DNA of 64,000 nt, from the sequence record ON528732; one strand, 5' to 3'. The translations under genes and the position numbers were made by a program. The stretch is from Shigella phage ESh22. This document shows, one piece after another, positions 47,424 to 63,843 of the stretch (within the stretch, counting starts at the first letter, position 1; each line of letters begins with the position of its first letter). A model generated the notes under the pieces. The model worked only from the letters and a program-made list of their open reading frames with translations, did not search any database and was not told the origin of the DNA.

Positions 47424-48229
47424 TAGTAAGTTCCTTTTTTGTTAGGGTTTACAGAATGAGTCTTAAGTGCATTACCTTCACCAGCAGTAAGTTGAGACTG
47501 CCTAATTGCACTTGCAGCATCAGCGTTAGCTTTATCACTAAATGATGTGACACCTTTACTAGTGTTTGCAGAAAGACCGCAATTACCTAAAGCTTTCTGT
47601 TCTGCACTAGAAAGTGGTCTTACTCCGTTAGCTCGCAAGTCATATAATAGTTGACAGTTCAGTTTACCATTTCCAATAGATGTTGTAGTGTTACCTGTAT
47701 TCTTCTTAGAAGTAACTCCATCATCTTTTGTCGTCGCTGTTTTACCAGTTGCAGCAGAAACATCAGTTGTCCCAACTACAGCTTTAAAGTTAATTTCTTG
47801 AAAGGTCATCTGAATACGAAGACCATTAGCAATTGTATGTTCCTTCGAAGCTTTAAACTGTGTAATAATAGAATCATCAATCTTGATACCATCTTTACAG
47901 ACAATTGAAATAATCTGTTTCTGGTCTCTCCACGTTTCAACTGTGCTAATGAAGTTCTCTACAAGTTGACCTTGACGAGTTAATAGAAGGCTACCTTCGT
48001 AGCCCACTACAACAACACCACTAATGGAAATAGTCTTTGGAGAACGCTGTACGTTATCTGTGACTGTTTGACCACTTTGAACCGATTGAGTTGTCACCAA
48101 CATAGGTGAGTCATACTCCATGTTTTCTGTTGCAGATAGTGTAAGGAAAGCATCTACATTATCCCTCAGATGGAAATAAATACCATCCTTTCCAGAATAC
48201 TTGATTTGCATGTTGTTATCCCATAACAT
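47423..48229 (-). CDS. tail/baseplate protein (268 aa) directly after the tape measure
   Basis: ORF track; position. Confidence 0.45.
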
Positions 48230-50463
48230 TATTCATCCTCTGGGTAGCTAGAACTTAACAGAATATCTTCCTGACTCTTATTAGTGATATCCACCATTTT
48301 ATTAGCAATCTGCTTACCATCCAGATTAAAGGAAACATTAAGCGTCTGCTTAGTTTGTAATGGGAATCCAGATGGACTCATCATCATTGGTGTCTGGTTA
48401 AACTTAGTTGCAAAGTTGTTTAAAGACTCAGACAGGTTGTTCATGATGATATCCCAATTTGACAATCCATTATCCACTCTCTGAATATTTCCAGAAGTGT
48501 CAGTGGTATATTGTGCGAACCTCAACTGTCCATTTTGGTCAAAGAACATCGGACGTTTAGCATTGGTAACTCCAGCAATAGCTTCGTTGAAAGGGTTTGG
48601 TGTATTAACATCACTAAATCTCTTCCCAGCATTTGGGTCAGCCGAACTTGAAAGCATAAGTGCAGAACCACCTACACCAAGAGCCATTCTAGTTCCTGTT
48701 ACACCAGCCGTTGTAGCTACTGTCTCTGCTGCTGTTGTCAGACCAAGCTTTTGAGCAATCTTAGCCAAAATACCTTCTTCAAAAATACTCTTGACAAATG
48801 CTACAGTACCACCGAAGATTTTAGCAACTTTCGTGATAGCTGCAATTGCAACACCGATAGCAGTGAACGTTGCAACTAACTCAGCAGAGTCCTTGATAAG
48901 TTTCTGTTGACTTGCACCTAAATCACTGTAATATCCCATTGCTAGGTAGTACAGTCCAGAGATTCGATACATGATATCTGTGATGAAGTCCAGAAGGTTA
49001 CTAGCACCTTTTAACAGGTAGTCAATACCAGTACCAAGAGCTTCAGTAGTCCCAAGGGAACCTTGCAAGAACATTGCAACGGAGTTAGACAACTGTGAGA
49101 TACCATTACTAGAGTTGTTGAAGAGAGCCACTAAGGTGTTATCCCACATCGCTTTTGCTTGACCCATTGATGTAGCAGTCTGCTTAGATACAGCATTCAT
49201 ACCACCTGCTGCGTCAACCAATTCTCTCATCTTCTCAGAGACTTTTGGAAGAACGTCTTTAGCAAGTAGCTTACCATCCTGCATCAACTTATCAAGTTCT
49301 TGTGGAGTCTTACCAATAGCATCAGAGAACAACTGAACAGCACCTGCCAAACGGTCACCTAACTGACCACGAAGTTCTTCAGCCTGAACTTTACCCTTAG
49401 ATGCCATTTGCTGGAAAGCAACCATGATACCTTTCAAGTCTTCATCAGATGCCCCTCTAATACGAGAGAACATTGCAGCGTTCTTATAGAACTCCTGAGT
49501 ACCTTTGAAACCAAGTGCAGGTTGAGCACCAGCAGCAAAGTTTGAGTACTGCTTCATAGTGTCTGTGTAGTTCTGACCAATCTGGTGAGAGAATGCAGCA
49601 GCGAACATTCTAGCTTGCTGTGTATCTGCTCCAAAGATAGCTGTAGAGGCTAACTGTGCAGACTGTCTTTTAACACCTGCATCAATGGTCTTCTGAGCTA
49701 ATTCTAACAAAGCATAGGCAGAAACAAAACCACCAATTAACTGTCTTAGTGAAGAGTTTGCTCTATCCTGTAGCCAAGCTGATTCTTTGACTGCCTTGAT
49801 TCTAGCATTTTCTGCAATAACCCAACGTTTGGTTGTGTCAATGAGTTTTTTAACTTCCATCTCATATTCACCAACCTTACCACTCCCTTTATACTTGTTA
49901 TAGATTCCTTGCAAGTTGCCTCTGAAAGAAGCAGCCATTTGGTTACCCTGTCCACCAATAGTTTCAAGACGACGAGTAAGACCAGAGTAGAAGTTGTTAT
50001 TAAACATCCTTTCCATTTGTCTCTGAGCAATATCAGGTCTAACTCTTGGTGAACCTCCACCCATTGGGGGAACGGTATTCCCACGACCTCTACCAGCACC
50101 ACCACGAATATTAACTTTACCGTCAACGTTCATAGCTTGTCTTAGAGCCTTATTAATTTCTTTGGCTGTCTTCTTCCCTTGTGTCTCTAATTTACGTAGA
50201 GATTTAACACCTTGAGAATCTAAATTGAGAGCGTTGTTTAGGGATTTATTGATTCTGCCCGAAGCAGTCTGAGCGTTTTTAACAAGTCTGTTTAGAGCTT
50301 CTTGAGAACTTTTATTAGGCTTCACGTCAAAGGCTTTGTTAATGTTTCTTTCGATGCGTTGAGCAGATTGCATAGCCATCTTTTCAACTCTCTGTAAACC
50401 TTTTACAACCTTTTCACTGAATCCAAGTTCCACAATAAAACTATCAACTGTATACTGTGCCAT
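48229..50463 (-). CDS. tail tape measure protein
   Basis: 744 aa, Ala/Gln/Lys-rich low-complexity helical sequence; immediately downstream of the chaperone pair and tail tube/sheath. Confidence 0.7.
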
Positions 50464-50690
50464 TAAATTTTACCTGCCTTTCTGAGTTCGTTATAGGCCA
50501 TTTCTTCTTTGTATGACTTCTGGATTTCCAGATATTGACGAAGAGATAATAGGTCAACGAAAGTCATTGAGAAAAGTTGGTCGAGTGTTTCTTTACACCC
50601 TTCCATTCCATAAATGGCAAGCACAAATTTCATCTCATCTGCTTCTTCATAAGTTGATTCTACAGCCCCGTCAGTCAGCGGGGTCTGCAT
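50463..50690 (-). CDS. tail assembly chaperone, -1 frame extension ORF (T-like part of a G/GT pair)
   Basis: 75 aa ORF in the -1 frame relative to ORF 50699..51106; that frame is open from the slippery site into this ORF. Confidence 0.5.
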   Translation of the reverse strand: MQTPLTDGAVESTYEEADEMKFVLAIYGMEGCKETLDQLFSMTFVDLLSLRQYLEIQKSYKEEMAYNELRKAGKI

Positions 50691-50698
50691 AACATACT

Positions 50699-51106
50699 TT
50701 AAGCTTCCTGAGAAGTTAGGCTTTTGAAAATGCTTGCCTCGAAAAAACTTCCGAAGTTTGCCTCCAAAGCAAAGGCTAAGAAGTCAATAAATTCACCGTA
50801 GTTTGCTTGGAAGTAACTATCAATTTTCAGTGGGAAGTCATCAACAGTTGCCCCCTGAAATAGTAATTCTGCCATTGAGTCAATATCTAACTCATCAATT
50901 CTGTCAAAGCAAGCTTCTACCAGTTCTTTGAAAGGAACTTTAGGAGCTTCTGGATTCTCATCTTTACCAGCAAGACTAGTAATCATCTGAGCAAAGGTGG
51001 GTACAACGACCTTACCAAGCTTCATAGAAATTTTGATACCATCTCTTGCACCAAGAAGGATAATTGTCACCTTCTTACCATTAATATGTTTTGTTTCAGT
51101 CTTCAT
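50699..51106 (-). CDS. tail assembly chaperone (G-like)
   Basis: 135 aa between tail tube and tape measure; contains slippery heptamer U_UUU_UUC near its 3' end. Confidence 0.55.
   Translation of the reverse strand: MKTETKHINGKKVTIILLGARDGIKISMKLGKVVVPTFAQMITSLAGKDENPEAPKVPFKELVEACFDRIDELDIDSMAELLFQGATVDDFPLKIDSYFQANYGEFIDFLAFALEANFGSFFEASIFKSLTSQEA
50741..50747 (-). other. candidate -1 programmed ribosomal frameshift slippery site (T_TTT_TTC)
   Basis: Heptamer in the zero frame of ORF 50699..51106 (codons AGT TTT TTC); the -1 frame from here is stop-free and runs in frame into ORF 50463..50690. Confidence 0.5.
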
Positions 51107-51137
51107 TGTGATTCCTTAAAAGTTATGCTATAAAAAC

Positions 51138-51170
51138 ACAAAAGGGGAAGACCTTTTACAGTCTCCCCCT
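51138..51170 (-). terminator. intrinsic terminator after the tail tube gene (GGGGGAGAC-loop-GGUCUUCCCC + U4)
   Basis: Hairpin + U-tract on minus strand between the tail tube and chaperone genes. Confidence 0.5.
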
Positions 51171-51182
51171 TATTAGGATTTG

Positions 51183-51629
51183 TTAAACGTTTGATGCAGG
51201 GATTGTTGAAGTGTAATCTAACTTCTCACAACCGAAAATCCAAGTTTTCGAGTTCTGGTCACGACCTAATTCAATCTGTGGAAGCTCTTGCAACCAAGCA
51301 TTAATACCTGTTGCCAGAACTGAACCAGATGGGTCATAAATTACAAAGTTAGATGAGATATCTTCTTCAAGTTCCATGTCATCTTGTTTAGCTTGAATTG
51401 CAGAAAGCATCTGGTTAGAGAGAGAAGTCTGCATTAGCTCAATCTCAATAGTACCTGTCTTATCTGCATTTCTTGTCAGAGCTACTTGACCACCTGCACC
51501 TACAACTGGCGTAACAAGTGGAGAAGTTCTCTGTAGACGCAAGAATGAGTCTGGGGCAAAGCCTTCAATAGCAATGCCGTTCCAGCTACATACAACGTCT
51601 TTAGGGGAATATTGCTGATACATAGCCAT
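51183..51629 (-). CDS. tail tube protein
   Basis: 148 aa, immediately downstream of the sheath gene (conserved myovirus order). Confidence 0.55.
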   Translation of the reverse strand: MAMYQQYSPKDVVCSWNGIAIEGFAPDSFLRLQRTSPLVTPVVGAGGQVALTRNADKTGTIEIELMQTSLSNQMLSAIQAKQDDMELEEDISSNFVIYDPSGSVLATGINAWLQELPQIELGRDQNSKTWIFGCEKLDYTSTIPASNV

Positions 51630-62160: not shown

Positions 62161-62237
62161 TGGAGTATCGGAAGGGACTTGAACCCTTATATACCTGTTT
62201 TGCAGACAGGCGCATAATCCATTTCTGCCACCGACAC
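62161..62237 (-). tRNA. tRNA-Cys (anticodon GCA)
   Basis: Hand-folded cloverleaf: acceptor GUGUCGG/CCGAUAC, anticodon stem CCUGU/ACAGG with loop CUGCAAA, T-arm AAGGG-UUCAAGU-CCCUU, encoded CCA. Confidence 0.75.
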
Positions 62238-62244
62238 ATTAATT

Positions 62245-62337
62245 TGGAGGAAGATACCAGACTTGAACTGGTACGCCGATTTCTCGGTTACTGGCAGTTT
62301 AGCAAACTGCTCCCTTACCTTTTAGGGTTAATCTTCC
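62245..62337 (-). tRNA. tRNA-Ser (anticodon GCU), type II with long variable arm
   Basis: 93 nt; acceptor GGAAGAU/AUCUUCC perfect 7 bp, anticodon loop UUGCUAA, variable-arm hairpin CCGA-GAAA-UCGG, T-arm ACCAG-UUCAAGU-CUGGU, encoded CCA. Confidence 0.75.
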
Positions 62338-62340
62338 AAA

Positions 62341-63066
62341 TTATTTGTTTAGAGCATCTTTCATCTCTGGAGTTGCGATTGTATCAATCACACCAGTTTT
62401 ACAAGCATCATCAAACCAATCTGGTAAGACATTAGCAAGAAAACCGTTAATATTCGTTTTAAGGTAGTCAGCAATCAGGGCTGCTTCATCTGCAATCATC
62501 TGAGCCACTTCATTAGCGTAGGCAGTAATCTTTGCCATACCCTCATTAATCGCTGTAACAGCTTGTGTAGCGAGTTCAGAGATAGTGTCTAGTCCTTTAT
62601 CAATCGCATCTTGTAAATCGCTTAGAACGCCATTTACAGCGTCTATGGATGTATTAATCAAATCCATAGCTTTGTTACCGTACTCTGTAGCAACTCCCAT
62701 GATTCCACTAAACGGTGTACAACCGACTTGTTCACCTGCTGCTCCCATAACGTTAGAGTAACCTTTAGCTACTTGCATACGTTGTGAAAACTCATCTACA
62801 GACTTCTGTCCATAGTCAGTTAAAGTAGTTGTCGTTGAAGTGGTGCTACCAAGGCTTGTTGTAAAGCTGCTTAGTAAGGCAGTTGTCAAGCCAGCAGCAA
62901 TAAGAATTTGCTGGGTAGCTGGGTCTGATACAGAACCAATAGAAGTTACTAATGACTGAGAAGCAGCAACTGTACCACCAAGAACTGCTGCACCAGTAAT
63001 AAGAGGGTTAGAGAACCCGTTACCGGATTTAAGGAGACTGAAAATCTCTTTACCTTGTCCTGTCAT
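62341..63066 (-). CDS. hypothetical Ser/Thr/Ala-rich protein (242 aa) embedded in the tRNA cluster
   Basis: ORF 62341..63138 trimmed to the ATG at 63066 (MTGQGKEIF) because the upstream part overlaps a tRNA-like gene; stop lies 3 nt from tRNA-Ser. Confidence 0.5.
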   Translation of the reverse strand: MTGQGKEIFSLLKSGNGFSNPLITGAAVLGGTVAASQSLVTSIGSVSDPATQQILIAAGLTTALLSSFTTSLGSTTSTTTTLTDYGQKSVDEFSQRMQVAKGYSNVMGAAGEQVGCTPFSGIMGVATEYGNKAMDLINTSIDAVNGVLSDLQDAIDKGLDTISELATQAVTAINEGMAKITAYANEVAQMIADEAALIADYLKTNINGFLANVLPDWFDDACKTGVIDTIATPEMKDALNK

Positions 63067-63091
63067 CTCTTTCATTATGCACCTATAAAAT

Positions 63092-63167
63092 TGGTAGCCC
63101 ATCGGGATTTGAACCCTGTTCTCATGTTTTTCAGACACGCGCTTTAACCATATAAGCTAATTGAGCT
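63092..63167 (-). tRNA. aberrant tRNA-like gene (anticodon-loop candidate CUGAAAA, GAA/Phe-like); possible pseudo-tRNA
   Basis: Clear T-arm/3' end (GGG-UUCAAAU-CCC ... CCA) and anticodon hairpin CGUGU-CUGAAAA-ACAUG, but no hand-fold gives consistent acceptor and D-arm pairing (5' half and 3' half imply different acceptor stems); 5' boundary uncertain. Confidence 0.35.
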
Positions 63168-63174
63168 GTTGAAT

Positions 63175-63251
63175 TGGGGTGACCTACGGGAATCGAACCC
63201 GTATAGACCATGTTCACAGCATGGGTCATTATCCATTTATGATAAGGCCAC
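63175..63251 (-). tRNA. tRNA-His (anticodon GUG)
   Basis: Acceptor GUGGCCU/AGGUCAC, D-stem UCAU/AUGA, anticodon stem CCAUG/CAUGG with loop CUGUGAA, T-arm ACGGG-UUCGAUU-CCCGU, encoded CCA; no encoded G-1. Confidence 0.75.
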
Positions 63252-63282
63252 ATTTAAGGACTCTCGTAAGAACCCTTAGAAG

Positions 63283-63358
63283 TGGCAGCAGCGTAAGGAT
63301 TTGAACCTTAATCGTTCAGCTTCAGAGGCTGGAGCATTGCCAGTTATGCTACACTGCT
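63283..63358 (-). tRNA. tRNA-Gln (anticodon CUG), isotype by anticodon only
   Basis: 76 nt; acceptor AGCAGUG/CGCUGCU, D-stem GCAU/AUGC, anticodon loop CUCUGAA, T-arm UAAGG-UUCAAAU-CCUUA, discriminator G, CCA. Confidence 0.6.
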
Positions 63359-63364
63359 AATATT

Positions 63365-63443
63365 TGGTACTCCATATCGGATTCGAACCGATACATAACA
63401 CAGATTTTAAGTCTGGCCTCTCTGCCAATTGGAGTAATGGAGT
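63365..63443 (-). tRNA. tRNA with anticodon UAA (Leu-like) but short variable region; atypical, isotype uncertain
   Basis: 79 nt; acceptor ACUCCAU/AUGGAGU perfect 7 bp, T-arm AUCGG-UUCGAAU-CCGAU, anticodon loop CUUAAAA; 7-nt variable region instead of the long arm expected for Leu. Confidence 0.5.
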
Positions 63444-63445
63444 AT

Positions 63446-63521
63446 TGGCGGGGGATGTTGGAATTGAACCAACTTCTTCGATTTCAAAGACCGAGGTTTT
63501 AACCTTGTAAACTAATCCCCT
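63446..63521 (-). tRNA. tRNA-Gln (anticodon UUG)
   Basis: 76 nt; acceptor AGGGGAU/AUCCCCC with G73 discriminator (as recalled for E. coli tRNA-Gln), D-stem GUUU/AAAC, anticodon loop CUUUGAA, T-arm GUUGG-UUCAAUU-CCAAC, CCA. Confidence 0.7.
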
Positions 63522-63747
63522 AACGAACTCTTGTCAGGACATATGCGTTATTACACGTATCCTGATTTTCTGGTAATAGCGTTTCAAATATGATTTGATT
63601 AAATTCAATTCCTGCAAAACCATGAACAACCTTCATAGCTGCTATTGGGTCACATTTCCAACCTACAAGAATGAAGTCAGTGTCCCCAACTTGTGTTGTT
63701 TCAATCTTGTCAGCATCTTTATGCTTTTCAATAATGAGTTTACGCAT
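63520..63747 (-). CDS. hypothetical protein (75 aa) between tRNA genes
   Basis: ORF track; GAAGG RBS upstream of the ATG at 63747; stop abuts the 5' end of tRNA-Gln(UUG). Confidence 0.45.
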   Translation of the reverse strand: MRKLIIEKHKDADKIETTQVGDTDFILVGWKCDPIAAMKVVHGFAGIEFNQIIFETLLPENQDTCNNAYVLTRVR

Positions 63748-63766
63748 ATAATTACCTTCTAGTAAT

Positions 63767-63843
63767 TGGTGCAGAATAAGGGATTCGAACCCCTAACAAA
63801 CAACTTCGTAGGCTGCTGCTCTATCCGTTTGAACTAATTCTGC
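63767..63843 (-). tRNA. tRNA-Arg (anticodon ACG)
   Basis: Acceptor GCAGAAU/AUUCUGC perfect 7 bp, D-stem GUUC/GAGC, anticodon loop CUACGAA, T-arm AGGGG-UUCGAAU-CCCUU, CCA. Confidence 0.75.

What the first reader, a model, noticed from the sequence alone, without database searches (positions are those of the whole stretch)
50463..51106. Programmed -1 ribosomal frameshift joining the two tail-assembly chaperone ORFs
A U_UUU_UUC slippery heptamer (minus strand, 50741-50747) sits in the zero frame near the 3' end of the 135-aa ORF between tail tube and tape measure. The -1 frame is stop-free from that point and runs in frame into the 75-aa ORF 50463..50690. This is the position and architecture of the conserved G/GT chaperone frameshift of tailed phages, predicting a roughly 210-aa fusion product.
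Basis: seen in the sequence. Interest (0 to 1): 0.55.

Follow-up and report, generated by a model that had tools for sequence, protein, structure and literature searches.

The report
Known tail-chaperone −1 frameshift site
This is the standard programmed −1 ribosomal frameshift that lets a Felix O1/Moogle-like phage make a short and a long tail-assembly chaperone from one gene; it is real and strongly conserved, but it is already annotated and published for this phage group.

Summary
On the minus strand, T_TTT_TTC (50747..50741) lies in the zero frame, 13 codons before the stop of the 135-aa chaperone ORF (51106..50699; Pfam Phage_TAC_15, 7e-21). The −1 frame is open from there to TAA at 50465..50463, which overlaps the tape-measure ATG. 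The predicted fusion is 214 aa.

It is not chance:
- Of 49 in-frame X_XXY_YYZ heptamers in the window, only this one has a −1 frame running past its own stop (92 codons; next best 33).
- 23 of 25 Phe-Phe dipeptides in the window's genes avoid the TTT-TTY run.
- All 37 unique homologous genes keep the heptamer at synonymous sites, including relatives at 28–47% protein identity.
- The internal ATG at 50690 is not conserved.
- Nucleotide identity to divergent clades peaks at 90% at the site, against 52–56% overall.

No downstream RNA structure is supported. A GGAGG 13 nt upstream is a possible stimulator.

The window is a Mooglevirus, 99% identical to Shigella phage ESh21. Phage Moogle's GenBank record carries the joined CDS. 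The Moogle and Mijalis announcements state the frameshift. A 2025 paper reports the conserved GTTTTT motif across 231 Andersonviridae.

Verdict: supported and already known. I found no experimental demonstration in this clade. One oddity: Sf14 virion proteomics detected the T-ORF product but not G.

The parts
50699..51106 (-). G / TAC-N ORF: 135-aa tail assembly (tape measure) chaperone, the zero-frame product
   Evidence: ORF list and translation. Pfam PF21822 Phage_TAC_15, E 7.2e-21, 75.5 bits against a cut-off of 22. phrog_1613 'tail assembly chaperone', 5.5e-49.
50741..50747 (-). Slippery heptamer T_TTT_TTC (U_UUU_UUC) in the zero frame (AGT TTT TTC)
   Evidence: Conserved in all 39 loci and 37 unique genes; one relative has T_TTT_TTT. 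It is the only T_TTT_TTY among 25 Phe-Phe dipeptides in the window. The motif class H_HH.U_UU.Y is among the most efficient in E. coli (PMC4066793).
50463..50741 (-). -1 frame extension (T / TAC-C part): 92 sense codons plus the TAA stop, read after the slip
   Evidence: The -1 frame is open to this stop in every relative, at 92-94 codons. Residues 139-214 of the fusion match phrog_4963 'tail assembly chaperone', 2.6e-50.
50463..51106 (-). Predicted GT (TAC-NC) fusion product, 214 aa (122 aa from the zero frame plus 92 aa from the -1 frame)
   Evidence: The span is 644 nt, and 644 + 1 re-read base = 645 = 215 codons including the stop. The homologous Moogle two-piece CDS spans 638 nt, so 639 = 213 codons with the re-read base, which is likewise consistent with a -1 shift.
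50463..50690 (-). 75-aa ORF as listed from its internal ATG (the 'T' ORF of automatic annotation)
   Evidence: The ATG sits at this position only in the Moogle and Susp clades. The Felix clade has CTA here, with an ATG 4 codons upstream that is ATA in L025. There is no ATG for 36-57 codons in L025 and in the Erwinia, LPML1, Wc4-1 and H101 clades.
50761..50765 (-). Internal Shine-Dalgarno-like GGAGG ending 13 nt 5' of the heptamer; a possible upstream frameshift stimulator (inferred)
   Evidence: Present in the window and in the Moogle, Susp, Felix and Wc4-1 clades. H101 has AAGGAG 11 nt upstream. Absent from the Erwinia and LPML1 clades. It meets the criterion of SD-like GGNGG 6-17 nt upstream in PMC4066793.
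50714..50740 (-). Near-invariant block immediately 3' of the heptamer (GARGCAAGCATTTTCAAAARCCT...), a dual-coding overlap of the G C-terminus and the start of T
   Evidence: 32 of 37 positions are identical to Erwinia-clade phages that are 55-56% identical overall. It is the only stretch blastn finds in Erwinia phages (query 349-389). It occurs only in this gene in IMG/VR. It is not conserved in Wc4-1 or H101.
50661..50689 (-). Stable hairpin that pairs the U and G of the internal ATG at 50690
   Evidence: -15.9 kcal/mol, z = -4.06. Present in the Moogle and Susp clades with one G-C to A-U double change; weak (-7.3) in the Felix clade. It lies about 52 nt from the heptamer, too far to stimulate the slip.
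51132..51171 (-). Intrinsic-terminator-like hairpin plus T-run between the tail tube gene and G
   Evidence: 12-bp stem, TTGTGTTTTT tail. (-20 kcal/mol, z = -3.5). Relatives annotate a terminator under the same 5-kb stretch.
48229..50463 (-). Tape measure protein gene; its ATG overlaps the T-frame stop (TAATG)
   Evidence: Pfam TMP_3, 1.7e-17.
51183..51629 (-). Tail tube gene (148 aa)
   Evidence: Pfam KPP10_Orf10, 5.3e-07. The Sf14 homologue gp40 is modelled as the tail tube (PMC11821841).
51645..52997 (-). Tail sheath gene (450 aa)
   Evidence: Pfam DUF3383, 5.6e-25. Annotated as tail sheath in the Sf14 and Moogle RefSeq records.

Best explanation
This is the tail-assembly-chaperone (G/GT, also called TAC-N/TAC-NC) programmed -1 ribosomal frameshift of a Felix O1/Moogle-like myovirus.

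Ribosomes start at ATG 51106. Most terminate at TAA 50701..50699 and give the 135-aa chaperone. A minority slip back one base when two tRNA-Phe(GAA) occupy UUU UUC of U_UUU_UUC (50747..50741) and re-pair with UUU UUU. They then read CGA and 91 more -1 frame codons, and terminate at the TAA that overlaps the tape-measure ATG. This gives a 214-aa protein with the same N-terminal 122 residues and a new C-terminal domain.

By analogy with lambda G/GT and P2 E/E+E', the shared N-terminal part coats the tape measure protein, and the rarer C-terminal domain recruits tail tube subunits. The frameshift therefore fixes the ratio of the two forms.

Shown here: the sequence architecture, family membership, conservation of the signal, and non-conservation of an independent start. 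Inferred: that slippage occurs on the ribosome, its efficiency, any stimulation by the upstream GGAGG, and the binding partners.
For: - Architecture verified.
- G is a Phage_TAC_15 member, and both ORFs hit PHROG tail assembly chaperone families.
- Gene order is sheath, tube, G, T, tape measure.
- The site is unique in the window: 1 of 49 in-frame heptamers has a -1 ORF passing its own stop, at 92 codons against 33 or fewer.
- The genome avoids TTT-TTY elsewhere: 23 of 25 Phe-Phe dipeptides start with TTC.
- The heptamer is fixed at synonymous positions in 37 of 37 unique genes (NNT, TTT, TTC/T), while other Phe, Ala, Leu and Glu codons in the gene vary.
- The same site and a 92-94-codon open -1 frame occur in Erwinia phages (44-47% identity), LPML1, Pectobacterium Wc4-1 and Pseudoalteromonas H101 (28% identity, a different genus, outside Ounavirinae).
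- In those four clades, and in the Felix-clade variant L025, the -1 ORF has no ATG for 36-57 codons, so frameshifting is the only conserved route to a full T domain. Database gene calls there are truncated 43-71-aa fragments.
- Nucleotide identity to divergent clades peaks at the site, at 90% against 52-56% overall.
- U_UU.U_UU.C belongs to the efficient E. coli motif class and is used by IS elements (PMC4066793).
- Moogle carries a two-piece CDS whose span fits a -1 shift.
- The frameshift is stated for Moogle and Mijalis (PMC4319497, PMC5543628). A conserved GTTTTT motif is reported across 231 Andersonviridae (PMC12846349).
- The T-ORF product is detected by mass spectrometry in Sf14 particles, so this frame is translated (PMC11821841).
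Against: - I found no direct evidence of the fusion protein or of a frameshift rate for any Ounavirinae phage.
- No significant or conserved downstream stem-loop or pseudoknot was found (z from -1.5 to +0.8), so the efficiency may be low.
- In this clade an ATG (50690) lies 8 nt after the G stop, so some free T could arise by re-initiation.
- Sf14 virion mass spectrometry detected the T-ORF product but not G, although the G part has 4-5 usable tryptic peptides. That is not what a GT-only source predicts.
- No natural in-frame G-T fusion was found in protein databases to corroborate covalent linkage.
- Conservation of the T6 run cannot by itself separate ribosomal from transcriptional slippage.
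Confidence: 0.85

Rival explanations
1. The T domain is made only as a free 75-aa protein from its own ATG (50690). One route is termination-reinitiation after the G stop 8 nt upstream. In this view the heptamer is an incidental consequence of a conserved Phe-Phe.
For: - The ATG exists in the window and lies 8 nt after TAA.
- The Felix clade has TAAacATG, a typical coupling arrangement.
- Most records annotate two separate ORFs.
- Sf14 particle mass spectrometry found the T-ORF product but not G.
Against: - The ATG is not conserved: CTA in the Felix clade, the alternative ATG is ATA in L025, and none for 36-57 codons in L025 and the Erwinia, LPML1, Wc4-1 and H101 clades. The heptamer and the open -1 frame are universal.
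- The heptamer is fixed at synonymous sites, although the genome otherwise encodes Phe-Phe as TTC-TTY in 23 of 25 cases.
- There is no well-spaced SD; AGGAAG lies 13 nt upstream.
- The U and G of the ATG are paired in a -15.9 kcal/mol hairpin.
Confidence: 0.06
2. The same GT product arises by transcriptional slippage. RNA polymerase inserts one extra U in the U6 run, and ribosomes then read the T frame without shifting.
For: - The site is a homopolymeric T6 run, and T7 in H101.
- U7 and A7 runs are under-represented in E. coli genes, possibly because of transcriptional slippage (PMC4066793).
- Sequence conservation alone cannot separate the two mechanisms.
Against: - The conserved unit is exactly a zero-frame X_XXY_YYZ heptamer: the register is kept in 37 of 37 genes, and the base before the run is never T. 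That is what tandem tRNA slippage requires and polymerase slippage does not.
- From my own knowledge, productive bacterial RNA polymerase slippage is usually reported for runs of about 8-9 or more. This was not tested here.
- The motif is an experimentally efficient ribosomal shift site.
Confidence: 0.06
3. Chance: a fortuitous heptamer and a fortuitously open -1 frame with no recoding.
For: Heptamers of this form are common: 49 lie in frame in the window.
Against: - It is the only one with a -1 ORF extending past its stop.
- It is conserved to 28% protein identity with 92-94-codon -1 ORFs.
- The -1 ORF is a recognised protein family (phrog_4963, 3e-51) and is detected by mass spectrometry in Sf14.
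Confidence: 0.01

Closest known systems
Tape measure chaperone frameshift of Citrobacter phages Moogle and Mijalis (Mooglevirus), and the conserved GTTTTT site reported for 231 Andersonviridae phages
   Same: It is the homologous gene pair, with the identical heptamer and flanks (AAGTTTTTTCGAGGCAAGCATTTTCAAAAGCCT) and the same -1 architecture. Moogle carries a joined CDS. The frameshift is stated in PMC4319497 and PMC5543628. The motif is reported family-wide in PMC12846349.
   Different: There is essentially no biological difference. The window's nearest record (ESh21, 99% identical), Sf14 and the Felix O1 RefSeq annotate two separate ORFs without the join. G is 135 aa here against 133 aa in Moogle.
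Phage lambda G/GT -1 frameshift (Levin, Hendrix & Casjens 1993; Xu, Hendrix & Duda 2004, 2013, 2014)
   Same: A short chaperone ORF sits just upstream of the tape measure gene. A -1 slip near its 3' end gives a minor long form. The function is to set a fixed ratio (PMC5009743).
   Different: The slippery sequence in lambda is G_GGA_AAG (from my own knowledge), against U_UUU_UUC here. Lambda is a siphovirus, and this phage has a contractile tail. I detected no sequence similarity to lambda G or T. In lambda neither product is in virions, whereas the Sf14 T-ORF product was detected in particle preparations.
Phage P2 E / E+E' tail chaperone frameshift (myovirus counterpart)
   Same: It is a contractile-tailed phage with the order sheath, tube, chaperone pair, tape measure, and a -1 frameshift. 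The review notes 2-3-fold higher efficiency in P2-like phages (PMC5009743).
   Different: Homology to P2 E was not tested here. The Pfam family matched is Phage_TAC_15. The efficiency in this phage is unknown.
E. coli dnaX / IS911-type -1 frameshift signals with an upstream SD-like stimulator
   Same: A heptamer of an efficient class, with an SD-like GGAGG 13 nt upstream. That is within the experimentally stimulatory 6-17 nt range (PMC4066793).
   Different: No downstream hairpin or pseudoknot. The SD-like element is absent from the Erwinia and LPML1 clades although the heptamer is kept there, so it is at most an accessory.
T4-like phage TAC genes (Vladimirov, Gautam & Davidson 2022), with separate short and long genes instead of frameshifting
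   Same: The same functional requirement for a short and a long chaperone form.
   Different: According to the PRFect paper's description of that work, those phages carry two genes. The window has only one G-like and one T-like sequence.

Membership tests
Tailed-phage tail assembly chaperone G/GT (TAC-N/TAC-NC) programmed -1 frameshift | The gene pair lies immediately upstream of the tape measure gene and downstream of the major tail/tube gene | tested here: met
   The order is sheath (DUF3383), tube (KPP10_Orf10), G, T, tape measure (TMP_3) on the minus strand. The T stop overlaps the tape-measure ATG.
Tailed-phage tail assembly chaperone G/GT (TAC-N/TAC-NC) programmed -1 frameshift | The downstream ORF is in the -1 frame relative to the upstream ORF, with no stop between the shift site and the downstream ORF | tested here: met
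   The -1 frame is open from 50783 to 50466. The same holds in all 39 loci examined.
Tailed-phage tail assembly chaperone G/GT (TAC-N/TAC-NC) programmed -1 frameshift | [quoted passage not shown] | tested here: met
   T_TTT_TTC lies 13 codons before the stop. It is conserved in 37 of 37 unique genes, to 28% identity. The site is the peak of nucleotide identity.
Tailed-phage tail assembly chaperone G/GT (TAC-N/TAC-NC) programmed -1 frameshift | The upstream ORF belongs to a recognised tail assembly chaperone protein family | tested here: met
   Pfam PF21822 Phage_TAC_15, 7.2e-21 and above the gathering score. phrog_1613 and phrog_3840. No solved structure is detectable by sequence.
Tailed-phage tail assembly chaperone G/GT (TAC-N/TAC-NC) programmed -1 frameshift | A fusion protein is actually produced, at a low fixed ratio to the short form | not testable with these tools
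   This needs a reporter assay or junction peptides. Only indirect evidence exists: the T-ORF product was detected by mass spectrometry in Sf14 particles, with no peptide-level data held.
Tailed-phage tail assembly chaperone G/GT (TAC-N/TAC-NC) programmed -1 frameshift | The chaperones are assembly factors absent from mature virions (as in lambda) | tested here: inconclusive
   For lambda, neither product is in virions (PMC5009743). For Sf14, G was not detected but the T-ORF product was detected in particle preparations. This could be carry-over, a processed GT or free T.
dnaX/IS-type -1 frameshift signal with stimulators | An SD-like sequence 6-17 nt upstream of the motif | tested here: met
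   GGAGG at 50765..50761, with a 13-nt spacer and the criteria from PMC4066793. It is not conserved in the Erwinia and LPML1 clades.
dnaX/IS-type -1 frameshift signal with stimulators | A stable downstream hairpin or pseudoknot 5-9 nt after the motif | tested here: not met
   Folding 45-101 nt downstream in 8 diverse relatives gives z-scores from -1.5 to +0.8 and no shared helix.
T4-like two-gene TAC arrangement | A second gene encoding the long form as an in-frame fusion | tested here: not met
   tblastn of G and T against the window finds only the one locus. No in-frame fusions appear in protein databases.
Programmed transcriptional slippage | A long homopolymer run (typically about 8-9 or more, from my own knowledge) whose register relative to codons is irrelevant | tested here: inconclusive
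   The run is T6 (T7 in H101). The codon register is strictly conserved, which favours ribosomal slippage but does not exclude polymerase slippage.

The most novel reading that the evidence does not exclude
In Moogle-like phages the locus may yield three products rather than two: G, the frameshifted GT, and a free T polypeptide. Free T would be made by termination-reinitiation at the ATG 8 nt after the G stop. The hairpin that sequesters this ATG would open only when a ribosome terminates on G. Free T, or a T domain cleaved from GT, would stay associated with the particle. That would explain why Sf14 virion proteomics detected the T-ORF product but not G, unlike lambda, where neither chaperone is in virions.

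A second, weaker possibility is that the near-invariant 27-nt block after the heptamer is an unstructured 3' frameshift stimulator rather than only a dual-coding constraint.
Probability: 0.15. Interest if true: 0.4.

Novelty: already known. Interest (0 to 1): 0.12.

Why it matters
The practical value is for annotation. The nearest database record (ESh21), Sf14 and the Felix O1 reference genome list two separate small ORFs, and some relatives name the G homologue 'head closure protein' or 'tape-measure protein'. The correct model is one gene with a -1 recoded long form.

Biologically, this is one more confirmation that the G/GT strategy extends through contractile-tailed Andersonviridae and beyond, to Pseudoalteromonas phage H101, using U_UUU_UUY. 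It opens no new question by itself. The only loose end that could lead somewhere is the reported presence of the T-ORF product, but not G, in Sf14 particles.

Tried and rejected
1. Downstream stimulatory RNA structure. I folded the 101 nt after the heptamer (z = -1.48), and 45 and 70 nt in eight diverse relatives (z from -1.4 to +0.8, no shared helix). Rejected.
2. The strong hairpin at 50689..50661 as a frameshift stimulator. Rejected because it lies about 52 nt downstream of the heptamer and is weak in the Felix clade. Kept only as a possible occluder of the internal ATG.
3. Rosetta-stone test for covalent G-T linkage. The 214-aa fusion searched against 5.8 billion proteins gave 85 hits, all G-only at 124-136 aa. 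The 92-aa T extension searched against 1.84 billion representatives gave 8 hits, all small ORFs of 43-79 aa. No natural in-frame fusion was found. The result is uninformative rather than negative, because gene callers do not predict frameshifts.
4. Solved structures by sequence for G. Nothing significant; best E-value 0.037, to an unrelated enzyme.
5. Peptide-level data for Sf14 gp41 and gp42. Not in the held supplements.
6. Primary papers Xu et al. 2004 and Vladimirov et al. 2022. Not held. Their content is cited only through papers that describe them.
7. The conserved block as a wider element. An exact-pattern scan of IMG/VR found it only in the same 31 contigs.
8. A second slippery site. 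None; other in-frame heptamers in G homologues have -1 frames of 3-4 codons.
9. I did not run structure prediction, because family membership was already settled by Pfam and PHROG hits.
Full report
**What is in the sequence**

On the minus strand, ATG 51106 opens a 135-aa ORF that ends at TAA 50701..50699. TTTTTTC occupies 50747..50741, and the zero-frame codons there are AGT TTT TTC. The heptamer is therefore T_TTT_TTC in the X_XXY_YYZ register that tandem −1 slippage requires. It lies 13 sense codons before the stop.

After a −1 slip the next codon is CGA. The −1 frame has no stop from 50783 down to TAA 50465..50463. It passes in frame through the ATG at 50690 of the listed 75-aa ORF, and its stop overlaps the ATG of the next gene (TAATG). 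The predicted fusion is 122 + 92 = 214 aa.

- sheath, 450 aa (DUF3383, 5.6e-25);
- tube, 148 aa (KPP10_Orf10, 5.3e-07);
- the 135-aa ORF (Pfam Phage_TAC_15, 7.2e-21);
- the 75-aa ORF (phrog_4963 'tail assembly chaperone', 3.3e-51);
- tape measure, 744 aa (TMP_3, 1.7e-17).

**Is it more than chance?**

Across 73 likely genes (19,252 codons) the window holds 49 in-frame X_XXY_YYZ heptamers. This is the only one whose −1 frame runs past the gene's own stop, at 92 codons. The next longest −1 frames are 33 and 24 codons, both well inside their genes.

The genome also avoids this motif elsewhere. Of the 25 Phe-Phe dipeptides in those genes, 23 start with TTC, although TTT is 53% of Phe codons. Only one is T_TTT_TTY, and it is this site.

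**Identity of the window**

The 5-kb stretch is 99.1% identical to Shigella phage ESh21 and 87–91% identical to Sf14, Sf17, KPS64 and Citrobacter phages Moogle and Mijalis. These belong to genus Mooglevirus, subfamily Ounavirinae, family Andersonviridae.

**Comparative evidence**

I examined 39 homologous loci: the window, 31 IMG/VR contigs and 7 GenBank records. They contain 37 unique G genes.
- Every locus has the heptamer in the zero frame at the homologous ...NF(G/S/E)(S/G)FF... position.
- Every locus has a −1 frame open for 92–94 codons, ending at or just before the tape-measure start. L014 is cut off by the contig end.
- Codon by codon, the preceding codon ends in T in 37 of 37 genes (AGT 36, GGT 1). 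The next codon is TTT in 37 of 37. The next is TTC in 36 and TTT in 1. Other Phe, Ala, Leu, Glu, Tyr and Asp codons in the same gene drift freely.

The set reaches well beyond close relatives:
- Erwinia phages, 44–47% protein identity;
- 'Listeria phage' LPML1, 46%;
- Pectobacterium phage Wc4-1;
- Pseudoalteromonas phage H101, 28% identity, genus Shandongvirus (outside Ounavirinae), which has T_TTT_TTT.

Against these divergent clades, overall nucleotide identity across G–T is 52–56%. The 30-nt windows at the heptamer reach 90% and are the maximum of the profile. In sensitive blastn, the only part of the query that matched Erwinia phages was positions 349–389, which is the shift site.

**The internal ATG is not conserved**

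- It sits at this position only in the Moogle and Susp clades.
- The Felix clade has CTA there and an ATG four codons upstream. That ATG is ATA in one variant (L025).
- L025 and the Erwinia, LPML1, Wc4-1 and H101 clades have no ATG in the −1 frame for 36–57 codons after the slip site.
- Consistent with this, the exhaustive HMMER search with the 92-aa extension found only eight clusters, all small ORFs of 43–79 aa. Several begin deep inside the domain, as expected when a gene caller has to use an internal Met.

Frameshifting is therefore the only route to a complete T domain that is conserved across the family.

In the window itself the ATG has no well-placed SD; AGGAAG lies 13 nt upstream. Its U and G are paired in a −15.9 kcal/mol hairpin with z = −4.06.

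**Signals that might tune the shift**

I found no support for a downstream stem-loop or pseudoknot. The 101 nt after the heptamer fold with z = −1.48. The 45- and 70-nt stretches in eight diverse relatives give z from −1.4 to +0.8, with no shared helix.

Two other features stand out.
- A GGAGG at 50765..50761 ends 13 nt upstream of the heptamer. It is kept in the window and in the Moogle, Susp, Felix and Wc4-1 clades, through both CTG and TTG Leu codons and a GAG Glu codon, although GAA is 65% of Glu codons. H101 has AAGGAG 11 nt upstream. The Erwinia and LPML1 clades lack it. It meets the criterion of Sharma et al. 2014, an SD-like GGNGG 6–17 nt upstream, a range they describe as experimentally stimulatory. 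A stimulatory role here is an inference.
- The roughly 27 nt after the heptamer are almost invariant, even in the Erwinia clade. This stretch encodes both the G C-terminus (EASIFK.L) and the start of the extension (R.KHFQKP), so dual coding is a sufficient explanation. The block is not kept in Wc4-1 or H101.

Sharma et al. place U_UU.U_UU.C in the H_HH.U_UU.Y class, among the most efficient −1 motifs in E. coli. They also note its use in IS elements.

**Mechanism (best explanation, confidence about 0.85)**

Most ribosomes make the 135-aa chaperone. A minority slip −1 on U_UUU_UUC, with tRNA-Phe(GAA) in both the P and A sites, and produce the 214-aa long form.

By analogy with lambda G/GT, the shared N-terminal part binds the tape measure protein, and the rarer C-terminal domain recruits tube subunits (review PMC5009743). 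P2 E/E+E′ is the contractile-tail counterpart.

The architecture, family membership and conservation are shown here. The act of slippage, its rate and the binding partners are inferred.

**Rivals**

1. *Free T only, made from the internal ATG.* It gains some support from the ATG lying 8 nt after the G stop, from TAAacATG in the Felix clade, and from a published table. In Sf14 particle proteomics the T-ORF product (gp42, FDI99_gp115) was detected and G (gp41, FDI99_gp116) was not (PMC11821841). The G part has 4–5 usable tryptic peptides against 6 for T, so digestibility does not explain the asymmetry. However, this rival cannot explain the synonymous-site conservation of the heptamer or the clades that lack an ATG. 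Free T may exist in addition to GT; that is the 'novel case'.
2. *Transcriptional slippage on the T6 run.* It would give the same protein and cannot be excluded from sequence alone. The strict codon register of the conserved motif favours the ribosome.
3. *The T4-like solution of two separate genes* (described). It does not apply, because the window has a single G-like and a single T-like sequence.
4. *Chance.* Excluded by the comparative data.

**What is already known**

- The GenBank record of Citrobacter phage Moogle carries a two-piece 'tape measure chaperone' CDS at the homologous position. Its 638-nt span fits a −1 shift.
- The Mijalis announcement says the same and cites Xu, Hendrix & Duda 2004 (PMC5543628).
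- A December 2025 paper on Pseudomonas phage Adele aligned the chaperone region of 231 Andersonviridae phages. [quoted passage not shown]
- The Atkins et al. review describes the G-T frameshift as widely conserved among long-tailed dsDNA phages.

The finding is therefore correct but already known. What remains missing is experimental proof in this clade and consistent annotation: ESh21, Sf14 and the Felix O1 RefSeq still list two separate ORFs.

**Verdict**

Observation confirmed. Interpretation supported. Novelty: already known. Interest is low at 0.12. The one loose end worth a cheap follow-up is to re-search the public Sf14 mass-spectrometry data for junction peptides. That would both prove the frameshift and resolve why T, but not G, was seen in particles.

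Noticed in passing
window 50661-50689 (-), with the ATG at 50690: A stable hairpin (-15.9 kcal/mol, z = -4.06) pairs the U and G of the internal ATG of the 75-aa ORF. It is present in the clades that have the ATG at this position (Moogle, Susp), with one G-C to A-U double synonymous change. It is weak (-7.3) in the Felix clade, where the codon is CTA. It may suppress or gate independent initiation of T.
   Followed up: partly
Sf14 homologues of window 50463-50690 and 50699-51106 (L003; PMC11821841 Table 1): Published Sf14 particle proteomics lists the T-ORF product (gp42, FDI99_gp115) as detected and G (gp41, FDI99_gp116) as not detected. In lambda neither chaperone is in virions. The G part has 4-5 usable tryptic peptides, so a GT-only source would be expected to show G peptides too. 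No peptide-level data were held.
   Followed up: partly
window 50714-50740 (-): The roughly 27 nt after the heptamer are nearly invariant, even in Erwinia-clade phages at 44-47% protein identity (32 of 37 positions across the junction). They diverge in Wc4-1 and H101. The stretch is a dual-coding overlap, and an RNA-level role cannot be separated from that.
   Followed up: partly
window 50761-50765 (-): An internal SD-like GGAGG lies 13 nt upstream of the heptamer. It is preserved through synonymous Leu codon changes (CTG/TTG) and a minority GAG Glu codon in most clades. H101 has AAGGAG at 11 nt. It is absent from the Erwinia and LPML1 clades.
   Followed up: partly
window-wide (73 likely genes): There is a strong codon-pair bias at Phe-Phe. 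23 of 25 dipeptides start with TTC, although TTT is 53% of Phe codons. This suggests genome-wide avoidance of slippery T-runs, or a general codon-pair effect.
   Followed up: no
window 51132-51171 (-): An intrinsic-terminator-like hairpin (12 bp, -20 kcal/mol, z = -3.5) followed by TTGTGTTTTT lies between the tail tube gene and the chaperone gene. It would lower chaperone and tape-measure transcript levels relative to sheath and tube.
   Followed up: partly
window 62161-63843 (-): A cluster of eight phage tRNA genes: Cys, Ser, Phe(GAA), His, Gln x2, Leu(TAA) and Arg(ACG). The phage carries its own copy of tRNA-Phe(GAA), the only tRNA species involved in the proposed slip. Whether it differs from the host tRNA-Phe in a way that affects slippage was not examined.
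   Followed up: no
window 50461-50465 (-): The T-frame stop and the tape-measure start overlap as TAATG. This is conserved in the Escherichia, Salmonella, Shigella and Citrobacter phage clades, so tape-measure translation could be partly coupled to ribosomes finishing the T frame.
   Followed up: no
L038 (OK283618.1, 'Listeria phage LPML1') compared with L031 (IMG/VR 3300045988_028620): A record labelled as a Listeria monocytogenes phage is classified in Ounavirinae. Its G and T extension translations are identical to those of the IMG/VR contig L031, and the DNA around the junction is nearly so. The clade otherwise infects Gram-negative hosts, so the host label looks doubtful.
   Followed up: no
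database names of G homologues (P0012, P0020, P0032): Some records name the G homologue 'head closure protein', 'Hc1 head...' or 'tape-measure protein'. The ESh21 record, the window's closest match, is flagged UNVERIFIED, and both ORFs are 'hypothetical protein'.
   Followed up: no
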